IMG/VR virus record: IMGVR_UViG_3300037851_000058
Span: 1-45,981 of that record
Direction: 5' to 3' (one strand)
DNA from: a virus
Taxonomy: Duplodnaviria > Caudoviricetes
DNA length: 45,981 nucleotides
In this document: positions 4,119 through 44,278 of the stretch, one piece after another
Layout: each line of letters begins with the position of its first letter
Numbering within the stretch: position 1 is the stretch's first letter
The notes under the pieces: model-generated
The model's database searches: none
What the model was told of the DNA's origin: nothing
The model's input: only the letters and a program-made list of their open reading frames with translations
Position numbers and translations under genes: made by a program

Positions 4119-5619
4119 CGAACGAGTCGCGGTCGCCTTCGCCGCGAAGGGATTCCGCTCCCTCTCCTCGGCGCTCACGCTTCCCCGGTATGATTACCGG
4201 GATTTTTTATCGCAAGCGTGGCCGATCCTCGAGCCCGCGAACCCTCTGCTTCACGATTGGTACATCGACGCTATATGCGAACACCTCCAGCTCGTCACCG
4301 ACGGGCAGATCCAGAAGCTCCTGATCAATATCCCGCCGAGATTCGGGAAGTCGAACCTCGTCACGATCCTCTGGCCCGCATGGACGTGGACGGTGAAGCC
4401 GTTCTTGCGTTTCATTTCCTGCTCGTACTCGGCCTCGCTCTCCGTCAAGCACAGCGTGGACCGCCGAAGGGTGATTGAATCGCCGTGGTATCAGGATCAA
4501 TGGGGCTCGCTCGTTAATTTCCGCGATGATCAGAACATGAAGAACGAATACGAGAACACCGCGCGCGGGCACATGCTGGCGACCTCGGTCGGCGGAACGC
4601 TCACAGGCAAGGGCGGCGACGTGATTATCGAGGACGATATGATCAATCCCAGCGAAGCCGAGTCCGATGCTTCGCGCTCTCATGCGATCACCATGCACCA
4701 GTCAGTCCTCAGCTCCCGGCTCGACAATCCGAAGCGCGGGATCAGGGTCGTGGTCGAACAGCGCACGCACCACCGGGATCTCACCGGGCACATCCTCGCG
4801 ACTGAAACCGGATGGACCCACTTGAACCTCCCGCTGATCGCCGAGAAGCGCTCGGTCGTGGTCCTGCCAGTCTCAAAGCGCGAGATCATCCGCGAGGAGA
4901 ACTCGATCCTCAACCCTTCCCGCTATGGTCGGAAAGAATGCGATGACCTGAAACAGATCATGGGCACGCGCACCTTCACCGCGCAATGCCAGCAGAACCC
5001 CACCGCCGAGATCGGGAACATTCTCAAGCGATCGTGGTGGAAGCGCTGGAAAGTCCTTCCGTCCGGATTTAATTTCCTCGTCACGTCATGGGACATGAGC
5101 TTCAAAGAAACCGAGAGCGGATCGTATGTCGTCGGGCAAGTCTGGGGTCGGCGCGGCGCTGATTATTTCCTCCTCGCCCAGACCCGACAGCGGATGGATT
5201 TCACCGACGCGCTCAATGCCCTGATCAATCTCTCTCGACAGTATCCGCTGGCGACCGGACACCTCGTCGAAGATAAGGCGAACGGGCCCGCGATCATCTC
5301 CGCCTTGCAGGGAAAAATCTCCGGGATCGTGCCGATCGAACCGCATGGTTCGAAGATCGCCCGCGCGCAAGCCGTGAGCCCGATCGTGGAAGCAGGGAAT
5401 GTTCACCTTCCCGACGAGAGCACTTGCGCTTGGGTCGCGGATTTCATAGAAGAATGTGCGGCCTTCACCGGAGGCGACGGGGAAATCAACGACCAAGTGG
5501 ACGCCGCCACTCAGGCGCTTTTCTGGATGTCTCAAGCCCGATTGATTGACGCTTCTGAGCTGGCAGACGAAGGTTCGTTCATCGAAGACTCGAACTTTGG
5601 GGGAGGGTTCTCGGCATGA
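4090..5619 (+). CDS. terL: Terminase large subunit
   Basis: Walker A NIPPRFGKS, Walker B IIEDD, nuclease SWD...EDKANG...DQVDA; TTG start. Confidence 0.95.
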   Translation: MPPEVLNPNNERVAVAFAAKGFRSLSSALTLPRYDYRDFLSQAWPILEPANPLLHDWYIDAICEHLQLVTDGQIQKLLINIPPRFGKSNLVTILWPAWTWTVKPFLRFISCSYSASLSVKHSVDRRRVIESPWYQDQWGSLVNFRDDQNMKNEYENTARGHMLATSVGGTLTGKGGDVIIEDDMINPSEAESDASRSHAITMHQSVLSSRLDNPKRGIRVVVEQRTHHRDLTGHILATETGWTHLNLPLIAEKRSVVVLPVSKREIIREENSILNPSRYGRKECDDLKQIMGTRTFTAQCQQNPTAEIGNILKRSWWKRWKVLPSGFNFLVTSWDMSFKETESGSYVVGQVWGRRGADYFLLAQTRQRMDFTDALNALINLSRQYPLATGHLVEDKANGPAIISALQGKISGIVPIEPHGSKIARAQAVSPIVEAGNVHLPDESTCAWVADFIEECAAFTGGDGEINDQVDAATQALFWMSQARLIDASELADEGSFIEDSNFGGGFSA

Positions 5620-39845: not shown

Positions 39846-40050
39846 GTCGAGCCGGGGGTATCTTGAGGGCTGGATTGTCTCTAAGGAAGATACGCTCCTT
39901 CGCGCGAAGCGGCTCCAGAAACACGGCGACTTTCTTCTGGCGCGGCTGATTGATACCCGCTCGCGATTCCGGAAATCCATGAAGCGGGTGGAGATGATCG
40001 ACGGGATTATTGCGCGGCTCAAGCGGAATATCCGAGGAGGAGCGAAGTGA
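39829..40050 (+). CDS. Basic hypothetical protein
   Basis: Fills operon; GTGA-coupled to next gene. Confidence 0.5.
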   Translation: MTARAKSSRGYLEGWIVSKEDTLLRAKRLQKHGDFLLARLIDTRSRFRKSMKRVEMIDGIIARLKRNIRGGAK

Positions 40051-40304
40051 TTTCATTCACAGATTCCAACCTAGCCAGTCTAAAAGAAAATGTGAAACAC
40101 GATGATTTCCGCTGGACGAAATCATTCGATAAGGACGTGGGGCTTGATCAGCTTAGGGCTCTTTTGAATCGTCTGGAAGCCGCCGAGAAAATTGTGAATC
40201 TGAATCACGGTTGCGAGGCTCCAGAGAATCCGACAGAAAACGGGCATTGCTGTATTGAAGCCGAAAAGGCGGAAGAAGCATGGCGTAAGGCGGCTGGCAA
40301 GTGA
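40047..40304 (+). CDS. Hypothetical protein
   Basis: SD GAGGAG, GTG start. Confidence 0.65.
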   Translation: MISFTDSNLASLKENVKHDDFRWTKSFDKDVGLDQLRALLNRLEAAEKIVNLNHGCEAPENPTENGHCCIEAEKAEEAWRKAAGK

Positions 40305-40897
40305 TCGTTAAAGCGAAGTGCGGGTGCTATATCGACGACAACTGTCAATGCGATCTCGCGCCTCAGCGCCCGATCCTTTTTTCCGCGCCGATGGTGCGCG
40401 CAATTCTGGCGGGCAAGAAATCTCAGACCCGGCGGCTGATGCGCCTCGGCGGAGAATACGACGGGGGCGGGCAATATCTGACCCGGGACGATGAGTGGGT
40501 GGACATCTGGCGAATGTGTCCGTATGGAGTCCCCGGCGACCTTCTTTGGGTGAAAGAGACTTTTCTTCCGTGGGATGCCAGCGGCGGAGTCGAGAAATAT
40601 ATCTATCGAGCGACTGAGGATCTTCCAGCTTACAGCGGGTCATGGAAGCCGTCGCTGTTCATGCCGAGGAAGGCGAGCCGGATCACACTCAAAATAACCG
40701 GGGTGCGGGCGGAGCGATTGCAGGAGATCTCGAGCGGAGATATTCTGGCGGAGGGCGTGGATCTTTCCCAGCCACCGCACGATACGGACCGGCTGGCCTT
40801 CGCTCGATTGTGGAATTCCATCAATGCGGAACGTGGGTATGGATGGGACAAGAATCCGTGGGTCTGGGTGATCAATTTCAAAAGGATTGAACTATGA
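40301..40897 (+). CDS. ASCH/PUA-like conserved phage protein
   Basis: PILFSAPMVRAILAGKKSQTRR, GDLLWVKET, WKPSLFMPRKASR, NPWVWVI.F. Confidence 0.85.
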   Translation: MIVKAKCGCYIDDNCQCDLAPQRPILFSAPMVRAILAGKKSQTRRLMRLGGEYDGGGQYLTRDDEWVDIWRMCPYGVPGDLLWVKETFLPWDASGGVEKYIYRATEDLPAYSGSWKPSLFMPRKASRITLKITGVRAERLQEISSGDILAEGVDLSQPPHDTDRLAFARLWNSINAERGYGWDKNPWVWVINFKRIEL

Positions 40898-40912
40898 AAT
40901 CAGGAGGGAAAA

Positions 40913-41293
40913 ATGCCGCCAAAGCAGGAAAAAACATTCGAGGAAAAGGTGTGGCACATCATCGCGGAGTCCAGCAACGACCGGGGCGGAGGGTCCGTCC
41001 TTCGGGTCATGAGCTGGATCGTGGACGGAAAGATGGGGAAGCCGTGCATCGACAAGCGGGACTGGTGGATGACCGAGGACAACGAGAAGCGGGTCGGAAA
41101 AGCGAAGGGCCTGACCGGGTACGATCTTCTGACCATTCTCCGAACGCTCGACGTGGTGGCGAAGGCGCTCCAGATTCCGGCGGAGGACATTCGCCTCGCG
41201 CTGGACGTGGAGCGGAAAGCGTCGAACAATCCGGAAACCGCGCCAGAGACAGCGGCGGCGGGCGGGGAGAAAAAAGCCGACCCGTGGGGGTAG
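40913..41293 (+). CDS. PC4/YdbC-like ssDNA-binding protein
   Basis: LRVMSW...P.IDKRDW...GKAKGLT; flexible tail ending DPWG. Confidence 0.7.
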   Translation: MPPKQEKTFEEKVWHIIAESSNDRGGGSVLRVMSWIVDGKMGKPCIDKRDWWMTEDNEKRVGKAKGLTGYDLLTILRTLDVVAKALQIPAEDIRLALDVERKASNNPETAPETAAAGGEKKADPWG

Positions 41294-41922
41294 TTCCTCC
41301 GATCGTCAATGAAACGCTTCTTCCCTTCCTGATCGGGCTCGGCGAGCTGGTCACGGACCCGAAGAATGCGCGGACCCATGATGAGCGGAACATTGCGGTG
41401 ATCATGGAATCGCTCGCGCAATATGGACAGCAGACCCCGATAGTTTATCTGAAAGACGGGAACGTGGTGATCAAGGGGAACGCGACTCTGGAAGCGGCGA
41501 AGCGCCTCGGCTGGTCCCAGATCGCGGCGATTCCATTCGACCGGGATGCGCTCAAGGCGGCGGGCTATAAGCTTACCGACAACCGGGCGGGCGAGCTGTC
41601 CGGCTGGGGACCGCTTCTGCGGGACAGTCTGGAGGAGCTGGTCGGCTGGGGGGTGGATCTCTCCCGGCTGGGCTGGGCGGACGAGGAGCTGAAAGAGTTC
41701 ATCACCGACCCCCAGATCCTCAGTCAGATCGGGCTCCCGGACATCGAGAATAATCTCCGGGAATGCACCTTCATTCTCTCGGAGGCGCAATACCTCACGG
41801 TGAGCGAAGCGATCCGGGAAGCGAAGAAGAAGGCGGGAGAGCCCGAAGAAGATAACGAGAACACCAACGGGAACGGACTGGCGGCGGTATGTCGATTCTA
41901 TCTACAAGCGGTCAAGCAATAG
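41284..41922 (+). CDS. ParB N-terminal domain protein
   Basis: PKNARTH...SL.QYGQQTPI...VIKGNATLEAAKRLG...DNR..ELS.W; GTG 41284 preferred over 40894. Confidence 0.85.
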   Translation: MGVVPPIVNETLLPFLIGLGELVTDPKNARTHDERNIAVIMESLAQYGQQTPIVYLKDGNVVIKGNATLEAAKRLGWSQIAAIPFDRDALKAAGYKLTDNRAGELSGWGPLLRDSLEELVGWGVDLSRLGWADEELKEFITDPQILSQIGLPDIENNLRECTFILSEAQYLTVSEAIREAKKKAGEPEEDNENTNGNGLAAVCRFYLQAVKQ

Positions 41923-42581
41923 ACGTAAAGGACATCCGGATCGACCGGATTGATTCAACCTCGGCGAACGCCTTCGTGCGCCGCTGGCATTACTCCGGGA
42001 CGGTGACGAACAATTCTCAGCTCCACTTCGGGGCTTTCTTTTCCGGGAAGCTTCACGGAGTGATGAGCTTCGGCCCGCCGATGGATCGCCGCCGCATTCT
42101 CCCGCTGGTGGAGGGGACGGGCTGGTCCCAGATGGTCGAATTGAACCGGATGGCCTTCGATGAAACGCTTCCGAAGAATTCGGAGTCGCGGAGTCTTTCG
42201 ATCGCGCTCCGGCTGATCCGCAAGCACGCGCCGCACGTGAAGTGGGTGGTGTCTTTTTCGGATGCGTGCCGCTCTGGGGATGGGACGATCTATCGGGCGT
42301 GCGGATTCCTGCTTACCCAGATCAACCGGAACAAGACGATCCTCCGGCTCCCGGACGGGACGATCCGGGCGAACCTCGCTTTTCATCTGGGGAAGCACGC
42401 GCTCAAGACCGGGAAGGCCAGCGAGCCCGAAGGCGCGGTCCCGATCCCGGGGTTTCAGCTCCGGTATATTTATTTTCTAGACCCGGCATGGCGGGCCCGG
42501 CTCACGGTTCCGGTCCTGCCTTATTCCGCGATCGCTGAGGCGGGCGCGAAAATGTACCGGGGTCAATCGCTGGCAAAGTGA
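41889..42581 (+). CDS. mom: Mom-family adenine-modifying enzyme (GNAT fold)
   Basis: ANAFVRRWHYS, GVMSFG, ELNRM, PKNSESR, VVSFSD, GTIYRACGF. Confidence 0.88.
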   Translation: MSILSTSGQAIDVKDIRIDRIDSTSANAFVRRWHYSGTVTNNSQLHFGAFFSGKLHGVMSFGPPMDRRRILPLVEGTGWSQMVELNRMAFDETLPKNSESRSLSIALRLIRKHAPHVKWVVSFSDACRSGDGTIYRACGFLLTQINRNKTILRLPDGTIRANLAFHLGKHALKTGKASEPEGAVPIPGFQLRYIYFLDPAWRARLTVPVLPYSAIAEAGAKMYRGQSLAK

Positions 42582-42642
42582 ACAGGGTCACGCGCGGGGT
42601 CCACCCGCGAAAGGGCGGTTCGAGTCCGACCTGCCAGCTCCA
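42569..42642 (+). tRNA. Atypical tRNA-Gly(TCC)-like RNA overlapping mom stop
   Basis: Full cloverleaf: GCTGGCA/TGCCAGC, GTGA/TCAC, CGCGG/CCGCG around TCC, GGCGG-TTCGAGT-CCG(A)CC, T discriminator, encoded CCA. Confidence 0.85.
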
Positions 42643-42673
42643 TTTTGAAAGCCTCGCCAGAACCCCGCCAGAT

Positions 42674-42692
42674 AGCCGGAAAGCGGCTTTTT
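42674..42692 (+). terminator. Probable intrinsic terminator after mom-tRNA
   Basis: AGCCG-GAAAG-CGGCT then TTTT. Confidence 0.55.
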
Positions 42693-42824
42693 AGGGCCGA
42701 ACCCCGGGCCGTCCTCCTCCTGCCTTCCCCCTGCCATGTAAAGGACAACCGAAATACGCACCCTAGTGCTTATTTTAATACGCACTACAATGCGCCGCAA
42801 ATTCCCCAGACCAGTCGAAAAGCC

Positions 42825-42855
42825 TTGCAGAGTGCTATATATCCTGATATATAAT
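42825..42855 (+). promoter_or_regulatory. Early promoter with palindromic operator candidate
   Basis: TTGCAG...TATAAT (17-19 nt spacing); TATATATC-CT-GATATATA at 42836-42853. Confidence 0.65.
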
Positions 42856-42894
42856 AGTGTGGACGGAAGGATTCAGCAACAGGAGGGCTCGAAA

Positions 42895-43113
42895 ATGGAA
42901 ACAATGGAATGGTTCAAAACTGCCTGCGAGCCGGGGACCTGCTCCGGGAGATTCTGCGCGGATTCAATCAAGACTGACCACTCTGGCCGCTGGTACATCA
43001 CTATGGGCCACCCGGGATTTAATAGCCCAGCCAATAACCGCATGGGCTACGCTTCCCGGGCGAAGGCGGAAGCGGCGCGCCGCCACTATGCCGAGCGGAT
43101 GGTGAGACCATGA
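42895..43113 (+). CDS. Hypothetical protein
   Basis: SD AACAGGAGGG, ATG 42895. Confidence 0.7.
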   Translation: METMEWFKTACEPGTCSGRFCADSIKTDHSGRWYITMGHPGFNSPANNRMGYASRAKAEAARRHYAERMVRP

Positions 43114-43316
43114 GCCGCCGGGAAATCGCTCCCTGCCTCTGCGGGGCTTATGCTCACCGGGACGGGGCTTGTTTCGATGGGCGGGTGTGCGAGGCGAAGG
43201 CTTGCGAATTTGAAGCCGAGAAGGGCTCGCGATTCTGCGAGGAGCACGGATTCAAAAATGAACGCCACCTGATGATTCCCAACAAGGGGCGAAAAACTGG
43301 AGGGACCAAACAATGA
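43110..43316 (+). CDS. Cys-rich small protein
   Basis: CLC, C-x4-C...FCEEH; ATGA coupling. Confidence 0.6.
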   Translation: MSRREIAPCLCGAYAHRDGACFDGRVCEAKACEFEAEKGSRFCEEHGFKNERHLMIPNKGRKTGGTKQ

Positions 43317-44278
43317 GTGCGAACGTGAACACGATGATGTATGTGGGCGAGAAACCGTGGCATGGGCTGGGAGTGAAGCTCGAGAAGGCGGCTACCTCGG
43401 CGGAAGCGATCACCGCCGCTGGGCTGGACTGGGCGGTTGAGAAGCGCCCGGTGACCTTCCTCGACAACGAAGGGAAGTCCCGGGAAGTCCCGGGGAAATT
43501 CGTAACGGTCCGGGCGGATACCCAGAAACCCCTCGGGGTGGTGGGCTCCGATTGGACCCCGATCCAGAATCGAGAAGCCTTCTCGTTCTTCGATGCGGTC
43601 GTTGGCGAGAAGCTGGCGATCTATCACACCGCCGGGGCTCTCGGCGATGGACAGCGGGTCTGGATTCTCGCGAAGCTTCCCGGGCACATTCGGGTCATCG
43701 GTGATGACGTGGTTGAGAAATTCCTGCTTCTCTCGAACGGGCATGACGGCGGGCTGGCCTATCGAATGGGCTTCACGCCGATCCGGGTTGTCTGCCAGAA
43801 CACGCTGAACATCGCCCTGAAAGAGGGGTCCATCCTCTCGGCGAAGCTCCGGCATACCTCCGGGATCGGGCTCCGGGTCAACGAAGTCCGGGAACAGCTC
43901 GGGATCGTGGCGGGCCTCTACCAGACCTTCGAGGAGCTATCGAAGCGCCTTGTTCAGGTTCCCATGAGCGTGAGCCGGGCCTCGGACTTCTTCAAGGGGA
44001 CGATCATCCCAAAGCCGAAGGAAGGCGAGACAGAGCTGGGCGCGCGCTCGAAGAAAATGCTCGAGGACGTGCTGAACCTGTTCGAGCATGGGCGCGGGAA
44101 TGACCTCCCGGGAGTGAAGGGGACCGCATGGGCGGCTTTCAATGCGGTGACGGAATTCGCCGACTACCGCCCGGTGCGCGGCGGGGATGAGGCGAGCCGC
44201 GCTCATTCGATCCTCTGGGGCTATGGTGCGGATATCAAACAACGCGCTTGGGATGCCGCCCTTGCGCTGGCGAAATAA
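43313..44278 (+). CDS. DUF932 (TIGR03299-type) phage/plasmid protein
   Basis: PWHGLG, AGLDW.V, IQN.EAF.FFD, TAGAL, HDG, TPIRVVCQNTL, GTAWAAFNAVTE. Confidence 0.92.
   Translation: MSANVNTMMYVGEKPWHGLGVKLEKAATSAEAITAAGLDWAVEKRPVTFLDNEGKSREVPGKFVTVRADTQKPLGVVGSDWTPIQNREAFSFFDAVVGEKLAIYHTAGALGDGQRVWILAKLPGHIRVIGDDVVEKFLLLSNGHDGGLAYRMGFTPIRVVCQNTLNIALKEGSILSAKLRHTSGIGLRVNEVREQLGIVAGLYQTFEELSKRLVQVPMSVSRASDFFKGTIIPKPKEGETELGARSKKMLEDVLNLFEHGRGNDLPGVKGTAWAAFNAVTEFADYRPVRGGDEASRAHSILWGYGADIKQRAWDAALALAK

What the first reader, a model, noticed from the sequence alone, without database searches (positions are those of the whole stretch)
41284..42692. ParB-Mom DNA-modification operon ends in its own aberrant tRNA-Gly: possible dedicated glycyl donor
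Seen: a 74-nt cloverleaf (42569-42642) begins inside the last codons of mom and is followed by a terminator. It keeps Gly identity elements (G1-C72, C2-G71, C35 C36, U73, CCA). It breaks translation features: A8 for U8, G33 for U33, a possible G32-C38 pair, a 6-nt D-loop, and a bulged A (42629) in the T-stem. Established: EF-Tu reads T-stem pairs 49-65 to 51-63; staphylococci use EF-Tu-evading tRNA-Gly for FemXAB; several GNAT-fold enzymes use aminoacyl-tRNA; the Mu Mom adduct is a glycine-like two-carbon group on adenine N6. I recall reports that Mom uses Gly-tRNA, which should be verified. Inference: the phage supplies a non-proteinogenic tRNA charged by host GlyRS and reserved for adenine hypermodification against restriction.
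Basis: partly seen in the sequence, partly recalled or inferred. Interest (0 to 1): 0.88.

Follow-up and report, generated by a model that had tools for sequence, protein, structure and literature searches.

The report
Mom enzyme's private glycine tRNA
Many phages carry, overlapping or beside the gene for a DNA-protecting enzyme (Mom) whose studied relative uses glycine-loaded tRNA, a conserved misshapen glycine-tRNA-like RNA that likely serves as the enzyme's own glycine donor rather than as a tRNA for protein synthesis.

Summary
A tRNA-Gly-like cloverleaf (42569-42642) overlaps the stop codon of a Mom gene (PF25680) behind a ParB-like gene. Mu Mom is published to use Gly-tRNA-Gly (PMC13219725). 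A covariance model finds the RNA in 246 of 269 related mom loci. Across 212 distinct copies it keeps G1-C72, C2-G71, U73 and anticodon-loop CC. It carries a T-stem bulge between positions 63 and 64 (202 of 212), backed by covariation, while U8, U33, loop sizes and the D-arm drift. Searching by the RNA alone, 71 of 73 viral loci have Mom nearby, against 0 of 64 for ordinary tRNA-Gly. In other Mom lineages the RNA sits at the gene's 5' end, in frame with Mom (49 of 50). Mu and close relatives lack it. Best reading: a host-charged, non-translating glycyl donor, likely cut from mom's own mRNA. Processing, charging, EF-Tu escape and use by Mom are untested. Nine literature searches found no report. 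This scan had noted the RNA on other DNA (e1-5764572).

The parts
41284..41922 (+).
   Evidence: PHROG 620 E 2.9e-24; a similar gene lies within 1.2 kb upstream in 154 of 191 related mom loci
41889..42581 (+). mom gene, 230 aa, GNAT-fold DNA adenine aminoacyltransferase homologue
   Evidence: Pfam PF25680 E 4.7e-52; PDB 8BV8 Mu Mom E 5.9e-22; H34, Y35, R87, S100, D125, Y135 align to Mu H58, Y59, R111, S124, D149, Y159; Mu R151 is not kept
42569..42642 (+). tRNA-Gly-like RNA (anticodon UCC, U73, encoded CCA); its first 13 nt are mom's last codons and stop
   Evidence: model R1 69 bits (the window was a seed of the model)
42629..42629 (+). bulged A between T-stem positions 63 and 64
   Evidence: bulged T-stem 97.3% paired versus 76.1% for a contiguous register; bulge column filled in 202 of 212 copies
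42674..42692 (+). candidate intrinsic terminator (5-bp hairpin plus U-tract)
   Evidence: hairpin forms; not flagged

Best explanation
This is a conserved tRNA-Gly-like RNA with a bulged T-stem that travels with mom genes, and it is likely cut out of the mom transcript, likely charged by the host's GlyRS, predicted to be a poor substrate for EF-Tu and the ribosome, and so likely serves as a reserved glycyl donor for Mom's adenine modification. Shown: structure by covariation, two-way linkage to Mom, conserved GlyRS identity, loss of decoding features, overlap with mom's coding sequence. Taken from the literature: Mu Mom uses Gly-tRNA-Gly, and EF-Tu reads T-stem pairs 49-65, 50-64 and 51-63 and competes with tRNA-dependent transferases. 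Inferred: RNase P and 3' trimming release the RNA. In the window that cut would remove mom's stop codon, and in the 5'-type lineages it would remove the first ~25 codons or the start site, so one transcript would give either enzyme or donor. Also inferred: the donor spares the translating Gly-tRNA pool, and U73 would shield EF-Tu-free Gly-tRNA from DTD. The product would be restriction-resistant phage DNA (6-NcmdA).
For: Linkage: 246 of 269 loci, 180 of 203 non-seed loci and 195 of 216 clusters at 90% nt; 236 of 246 start within -30..+150 nt of the last aligned Mom residue. Reverse: 71 of 73 RNA-pattern viral loci with >=1 kb upstream have a Mom hit within the fetched flanks, versus 0 of 64 for a canonical tRNA-Gly pattern. 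All 23 neighbours tested are PF25680 above cut-off, from several deep Mom lineages. Structure: 96.4% of cells paired, 19 of 21 pairs with two-sided changes, 0 of 500 shuffles as high, slid controls 38-48%. GlyRS determinants listed in PMC7826273 are kept: G1-C72 212/212, C2-G71 212/212, U73 203/212, CC in the anticodon loop 210/212. Decoding features are lost: U8 96/212, T-loop TTC 43/212, 7-nt anticodon loop 143/212, and of those 143 U33 in 56 and anticodon ACC in 62. In 84 ordinary viral tRNA-Gly: U8 80, U33 84, ACC 2. The bulge lies inside the EF-Tu-read pairs (PMC11231383). EF-Tu-GTP competitively inhibits FmhB by sequestering proteinogenic tRNA, and the staphylococcal donors have TGC/TGT T-loops (PMC7826273); TGC is the commonest T-loop here (74/212). 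U73 protects Gly-tRNA from DTD (PMC6097841 abstract). Eleven copies are antisense to mom, which fits action in trans.
Against: No expression, processing, charging, EF-Tu or Mom-usage data. Mu Mom accepts all three E. coli tRNA-Gly isoacceptors. The RNA was not found near 12 named phage mom loci including Mu, near 26 Mu-like loci, or near 8 Mom loci from phylum samples outside the two centre genomes (some flanks short), so it is not required for momylation in general. 14 of the 269 close loci show no copy nearby. Odd T-stems need not block EF-Tu: 8/4 and 9/3 allo-tRNAs are delivered by EF-Tu, and the selC* bulge was dispensable (PMC5389517). 10 of 212 copies lack the bulge and 70 of 212 lack encoded CCA. 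Mu R151, essential in Mu, is C127 here, so activity of this Mom is unproven. Invariance of G1-C72/C2-G71 is partly circular, because seeds were chosen with GC ends.
Confidence: 0.7

Rival explanations
1. The RNA acts mainly in cis, as a tRNA-shaped switch or processing site that limits how much Mom is made; charging is incidental.
For: It overlaps mom's reading frame at either end. In the window's clade the frame reads through it in 129 of 246 loci and stops inside it in 36. In the 5'-type, the frame is open through the whole RNA in 49 of 50 loci, versus 11 and 6 of 50 for the other two frames. 40 of 50 have no start codon between CCA and the fold, and 18 of 50 have an in-frame ATG with an SD-like word inside the RNA.
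Against: 81 of 246 copies lie wholly after the stop, 11 are antisense, and some are hundreds of bases away. A cis switch does not need C35/C36, U73 and CCA, which are what GlyRS reads. This role may be real in addition to the donor role.
Confidence: 0.12
2. It is a translating tRNA-Gly that refills the pool that Mom drains.
For: Anticodon UCC in the window and in 73 of 143 copies with 7-nt loops; default ARAGORN accepts 31 of 212 copies, 18 of them as tRNA-Gly; unusual tRNAs can translate (PMC5389517).
Against: G33 in the window; U33 in only 56 of 143; anticodon loops of 5-8 nt; ACC anticodons in 62 of 143; D-arm regions from 8 to 20 nt; conserved bulge in the EF-Tu site. The control set shows none of this drift.
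Confidence: 0.08
3. It is a tRNA mimic that binds Mom and holds it inactive (an antitoxin-like RNA), or a decoy for host tRNA-targeting defences.
For: Strict co-occurrence with Mom. Mom probably reads the acceptor end (speculation in PMC13219725), which is the invariant part of the RNA.
Against: Anticodon CC is kept in 210 of 212 copies although Mom accepts all isoacceptors, which points to GlyRS. A general decoy would not be tied to mom (0 of 64 controls). A glycylated mimic with a normal CCA end would be a substrate.
Confidence: 0.08
4. It is a decaying tRNA pseudogene or an attachment-site remnant.
For: Missed by standard tools; some copies are reduced.
Against: Compensatory changes in all four stems; fixed position beside mom; the tRNA-Gly genes of five host genomes are canonical and differ in sequence from the mom-linked copy.
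Confidence: 0.02

Closest known systems
Phage Mu Mom (PF25680, PDB 8BV8; PMC13219725)
   Same: Same family; six of seven residues named as active-site in the paper align; Gly-tRNA-Gly is the demonstrated donor of Mu Mom.
   Different: Mu uses host tRNA-Gly and has no such RNA near mom. This lineage has a ParB-like partner gene and its own tRNA-like RNA, and lacks R151.
Staphylococcal non-proteinogenic tRNA-Gly NP1-3 for FmhB/FemAB (PMC7826273)
   Same: GlyRS identity kept; T-loop often TGC; altered T-stem at EF-Tu-read positions; partner is a tRNA-dependent transferase.
   Different: NP tRNAs are chromosomal and weaken EF-Tu binding by A-U pairs (A49-U65, U50-A64, A51-U63), not by a bulge. They serve cell-wall synthesis and are described as staphylococcus-only. 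This RNA is phage-borne, G-C rich with a 63/64 bulge, overlaps its enzyme's gene and would serve DNA modification.
Allo-tRNAs and selC* tRNA-Cys (PMC5389517)
   Same: Non-standard acceptor/T branch, some with a bulged A; missed by standard annotation.
   Different: Those are 8/4 or 9/3 with the bulge at 51a and can translate. This is a 7-bp acceptor plus 5 (sometimes 4) T-stem pairs with a 3'-side bulge and Gly identity.
Ordinary phage tRNA-Gly genes
   Same: Acceptor identity, U73, CC anticodon.
   Different: They keep U8 (80/84), U33 (84/84) and mostly G51-C63 (84/121), and are not beside mom (0/64).

Membership tests
Mom family (PF25680) | Profile match above curated cut-off | tested here: met
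   177 bits versus cut-off 27.1
Mom family (PF25680) | Catalytic residues of Mu Mom (H58, Y59, R111, S124, D149, Y159) | tested here: met
   H34, Y35, R87, S100, D125, Y135
Mom family (PF25680) | Mu R151 (R151A inactive in Mu) | tested here: not met
   C127 at the aligned column, with R128 adjacent; R occurs at this column only in the four Mu-clade rows
Mom family (PF25680) | Gly-tRNA-dependent formation of 6-NcmdA on dsDNA | not testable with these tools
   needs LC-MS assay
Canonical translating tRNA-Gly (RF00005) | Called by Rfam or default ARAGORN | tested here: not met
   only ARAGORN -ps calls it
Canonical translating tRNA-Gly (RF00005) | U8, U33, contiguous 5-bp T-stem | tested here: not met
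   A8, G33 and bulge in the window; family counts
Canonical translating tRNA-Gly (RF00005) | GlyRS identity G1-C72, C2-G71, U73, C35, C36 | tested here: met
   window sequence; 212, 212, 203 and 210 of 212
Non-proteinogenic tRNA-Gly (staphylococcal NP type) | A49-U65, U50-A64, A51-U63 T-stem signature | tested here: not met
   G49-C65 199/212, G50-C64 164/212, C51-G63 159/212 plus bulge
Non-proteinogenic tRNA-Gly (staphylococcal NP type) | T-loop TGC/TGT instead of TTC | tested here: inconclusive
   window has TTC; family TGC 74, TGT 8, TTC 43, GGC 36 of 212
Non-proteinogenic tRNA-Gly (staphylococcal NP type) | Charged by GlyRS, not bound by EF-Tu, preferred by the partner transferase | not testable with these tools
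   needs biochemistry
Allo-tRNA / selC* (8/4, 9/3) | 8- or 9-bp acceptor stem, bulge at 51a | tested here: not met
   7-bp acceptor 99.6% paired, bulge on the 3' strand

The most novel reading that the evidence does not exclude
A widespread phage RNA class that is at once part of its enzyme's coding sequence and that enzyme's co-substrate: each mom transcript is either translated into Mom or cut into a bulged, EF-Tu-invisible Gly-tRNA. This would set the enzyme-to-donor ratio, and the Mom enzymes of these lineages would prefer the bulged RNA over host tRNA-Gly, forming a near-orthogonal enzyme-tRNA pair for DNA modification.
Probability: 0.35. Interest if true: 0.92.

Novelty: new variant of a known kind. 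Interest (0 to 1): 0.82.

Why it matters
Mom's donor was identified only recently and is described as scavenged host tRNA. If this reading holds, several Mom lineages solve the competition with EF-Tu and translation by encoding a private donor, a strategy known from staphylococcal cell-wall synthesis but, in the searches made, not from phages or DNA modification. The family is large (about 1,400 viral stretches estimated for one pattern) and mostly invisible to tRNA finders (31 of 212 called). It gives a direct test of how a T-stem bulge affects EF-Tu binding, explains nonsense tails on many annotated Mom proteins, and may offer a translation-independent aminoacyl donor for DNA labelling. A cultured phage, Psychrobacter vB_PmaS_Y8A, has two tandem copies.

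Tried and rejected
Rfam and default ARAGORN gave no call for the window; Rfam called 1 of 18 related loci. blastn of the RNA region against cultured phages gave only chance hits: the family is conserved in structure, not long sequence. No RNA holder was listed for the window, which is no evidence either way; read laying was not used. No sigma-70-like promoter in 40000-43500. Contiguous T-stem register rejected (pair 53-67 unpaired in 65 of 66). Attachment-site remnant rejected. ParB as the RNA's partner rejected as a general rule (13/15, 10/27 and 0/14 in three groups by tblastn with the window's ParB; distant ParBs could be missed). The idea that the RNA-encoded peptide (GGxxPTxxLQ) is needed by Mom is not supported: it is not translated in the window or in 83 of 190 loci. 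The classification line was faulty (the profile included the RNA-coded tail) and was redone. The Mom tree is the quick tree, unrooted, with 7 rows dropped for mis-picked starts or a frameshift; no order of gain or loss is claimed. No structure or complex prediction was run.

Full report
Setting. The window is a whole 45,981-base virus record with terminase, head, tape-measure and endolysin genes and no tRNA by default ARAGORN. A ParB-like gene (41284-41922; PHROG 620, E 2.9e-24) overlaps mom (41889-42581; PF25680, E 4.7e-52; PDB 8BV8, E 5.9e-22). H34, Y35, R87, S100, D125 and Y135 align to Mu H58, Y59, R111, S124, D149 and Y159; Mu R151 aligns to C127.

The observation. Rfam misses it; ARAGORN -ps calls it tRNA-Gly(tcc). 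Fold z = -2.28. The terminator is only a candidate.

The premise. PMC13219725 shows that Mu Mom moves glycine from Gly-tRNA-Gly to adenine N6, that all three E. coli isoacceptors work, and that mischarged tRNA-Ala does not. I saw the abstract, parts 1-2 of 12 of the text, sections 13, 14 and 38, and a term search. 'EF-Tu' occurs only in its references; 'neighbor' and 'ParB' do not occur. Supplement file 2 had no 'tRNA gene', 'tRNA-like', 'ParB' or 'EF-Tu'; file 1 is a scan I could not read and could bear on novelty. In the preprint 10.1101/2023.03.24.534169 I saw passages only; its supplements are closed.

Forward linkage. In the first 28 related viral loci a similar cloverleaf was visible by eye at mom's 3' end in 26; one locus was cut off and one had none. 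I fetched 240 more loci, parsed them structurally, aligned 66 copies and built model R1. R1 hits 246 of 269 loci. That is 180 of 203 non-seed loci and 195 of 216 clusters at 90% nucleotide identity. 236 of 246 start within -30..+150 nt of the last aligned Mom residue; 11 are antisense. Of the 23 misses, 5 have under 50 nt downstream, 2 score with filters off, 2 show a degenerate copy by eye, and 14 show none nearby.

Structure. On the MAFFT alignment, 96.4% of cells pair and 19 of 21 pairs have two-sided changes; 0 of 500 shuffles reach this and slid controls give 38-48% (seeds were selected for pairing, so this is favourable). The model-fitted genome set gives 96.8%. The bulged T-stem is 97.3% paired; a contiguous register gives 76.1%. 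Among 212 distinct copies: G1-C72 212, C2-G71 212, G3-C70 190, U73 203, CC in the anticodon loop 210, encoded CCA 142, bulge present 202 (A 170, U 25, C 7). Against that: U8 96, T-loop TTC 43 (TGC 74, GGC 36), anticodon loop of 7 nt 143, D-arm region 8-20 nt. In the 143 seven-base loops, U33 occurs in 56 and the anticodons are TCC 73, ACC 62, CCC 4, GCC 4. In 84 ordinary viral tRNA-Gly, U8 is 80, U33 84 and ACC 2; default ARAGORN calls only 31 of the 212 copies. The end-pair invariance is partly circular.

Reverse linkage. A pattern for the bulged T-arm plus acceptor end gave 120 viral loci from 6 of 64 parts of the collection, about 1,400 estimated. 71 of 73 with at least 1 kb upstream have a Mom hit within the fetched flanks; over all 120, including 40 with about 300-nt flanks, 96 do. 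With a canonical tRNA-Gly pattern the count is 0 of 64; one short-flank locus among the rest had a hit. All 23 neighbours scanned are PF25680 and nearly all keep the catalytic motifs. They fall in the window's clade, in a second large clade and in several further branches (quick, unrooted tree, 7 rows dropped).

Overlap with the coding sequence. In the window's clade the mom frame reads through the whole RNA in 129 of 246 loci, stops inside it in 36 and before it in 81. In other lineages the RNA precedes the Mom fold. Of 53 distinct copies from a second pattern, 50 have Mom downstream and 49 of these have the Mom frame open across the whole RNA, all in one frame, whereas the other frames are open in 11 and 6. 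40 have no start codon between CCA and the fold; 18 have an in-frame ATG with an SD-like word inside the RNA. These copies are related and the pattern fixes their 3' third, so they are not independent. That RNase P cuts before G1, and that stop-less mRNAs are tagged by tmRNA, is recalled knowledge; it implies that releasing the RNA would spoil that mRNA.

Limits. No copy was found near mom in Mu, JD024, PAN70, pAEv1818, Riggi, Q69, HGTV-1, Alsa_1, PX29, Melnitz, DillTech15 or Porphyromonas phage013a (the 30-bit Melnitz hit is an unbulged tRNA with non-Gly ends). None was found in 26 of the 44 Mu-like loci that I gave to the model, nor in 8 Mom loci from two 401-genome phylum samples outside the centre genomes (some flanks are short). 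The RNA is therefore lineage-restricted. Host tRNA-Gly genes in five genomes are canonical and distinct from the mom-linked copy.

Mechanism. The RNA keeps what GlyRS reads (PMC7826273, passages) and lets go of what the ribosome needs. Its one shared novelty sits between pairs 50-64 and 51-63, which set EF-Tu affinity (PMC11231383, passages). EF-Tu-GTP inhibits the transferase FmhB by sequestering ordinary Gly-tRNA, and staphylococci use dedicated tRNA-Gly for it. U73 protects Gly-tRNA-Gly from DTD (PMC6097841, abstract only). The simplest account is a private donor for Mom (0.7). A cis-regulatory role (0.12) may coexist. A translating tRNA (0.08) and an inhibitory mimic (0.08) fit less well; note that irregular allo-tRNAs can use EF-Tu (PMC5389517, passages). 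None of processing, charging, EF-Tu escape or transfer was tested, and no RNA run was listed.

Novelty. Nine full-text searches listed no paper on a mom-linked tRNA; passages in PMC7824862 and PMC12908700 do not mention one. The library lacks most subscription papers. This scan's own notes mention the RNA on other DNA (e1-5764572, read after I had found the linkage) and the ParB-Mom pairing (e1-3642171). It works like the staphylococcal non-proteinogenic tRNA-Gly but fails that family's T-stem signature, so I rate it a new variant of a known kind, with interest 0.82.

Noticed in passing
L269:4623-4690 and 4695-4763 (Psychrobacter phage vB_PmaS_Y8A, OQ059336): Two tandem, unannotated copies with strongly reduced D-arms between mom and the small terminase gene; a cultured test system.
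   Followed up: partly
L125, L130, L176, L232, L296, L327 and others: Two mom paralogues in tandem with one RNA after the second; in L296 and L327 the upstream paralogue has G instead of the conserved D149. L213 has two mom genes, each followed by an RNA copy.
   Followed up: no
L143, L146, L149, L256: Tandem pairs of copies without the bulge and without encoded CCA, some without CC in the anticodon loop.
   Followed up: no
L167, just after mom: A tRNA-like remnant that seems to lack the anticodon arm but ends in ACCA (seen by eye).
   Followed up: no
alignment: Mu's essential R151 is present only in the four Mu-clade rows, the near clade that lacks the RNA.
   Followed up: no
8 of 212 copies (e.g. 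L002, L006, L210, L233, L252): A73 instead of U73, which may reflect hosts with a different GlyRS type.
   Followed up: no
P0002, P0033, P0116 and other annotated Mom proteins: C-terminal tails of the type GGxxPTxxLQ are the tRNA-like RNA read as codons.
   Followed up: yes
window 42770-42860: AT-rich stretch with a TATAAT word ahead of the next gene block; not flagged by the promoter scan.
   Followed up: no
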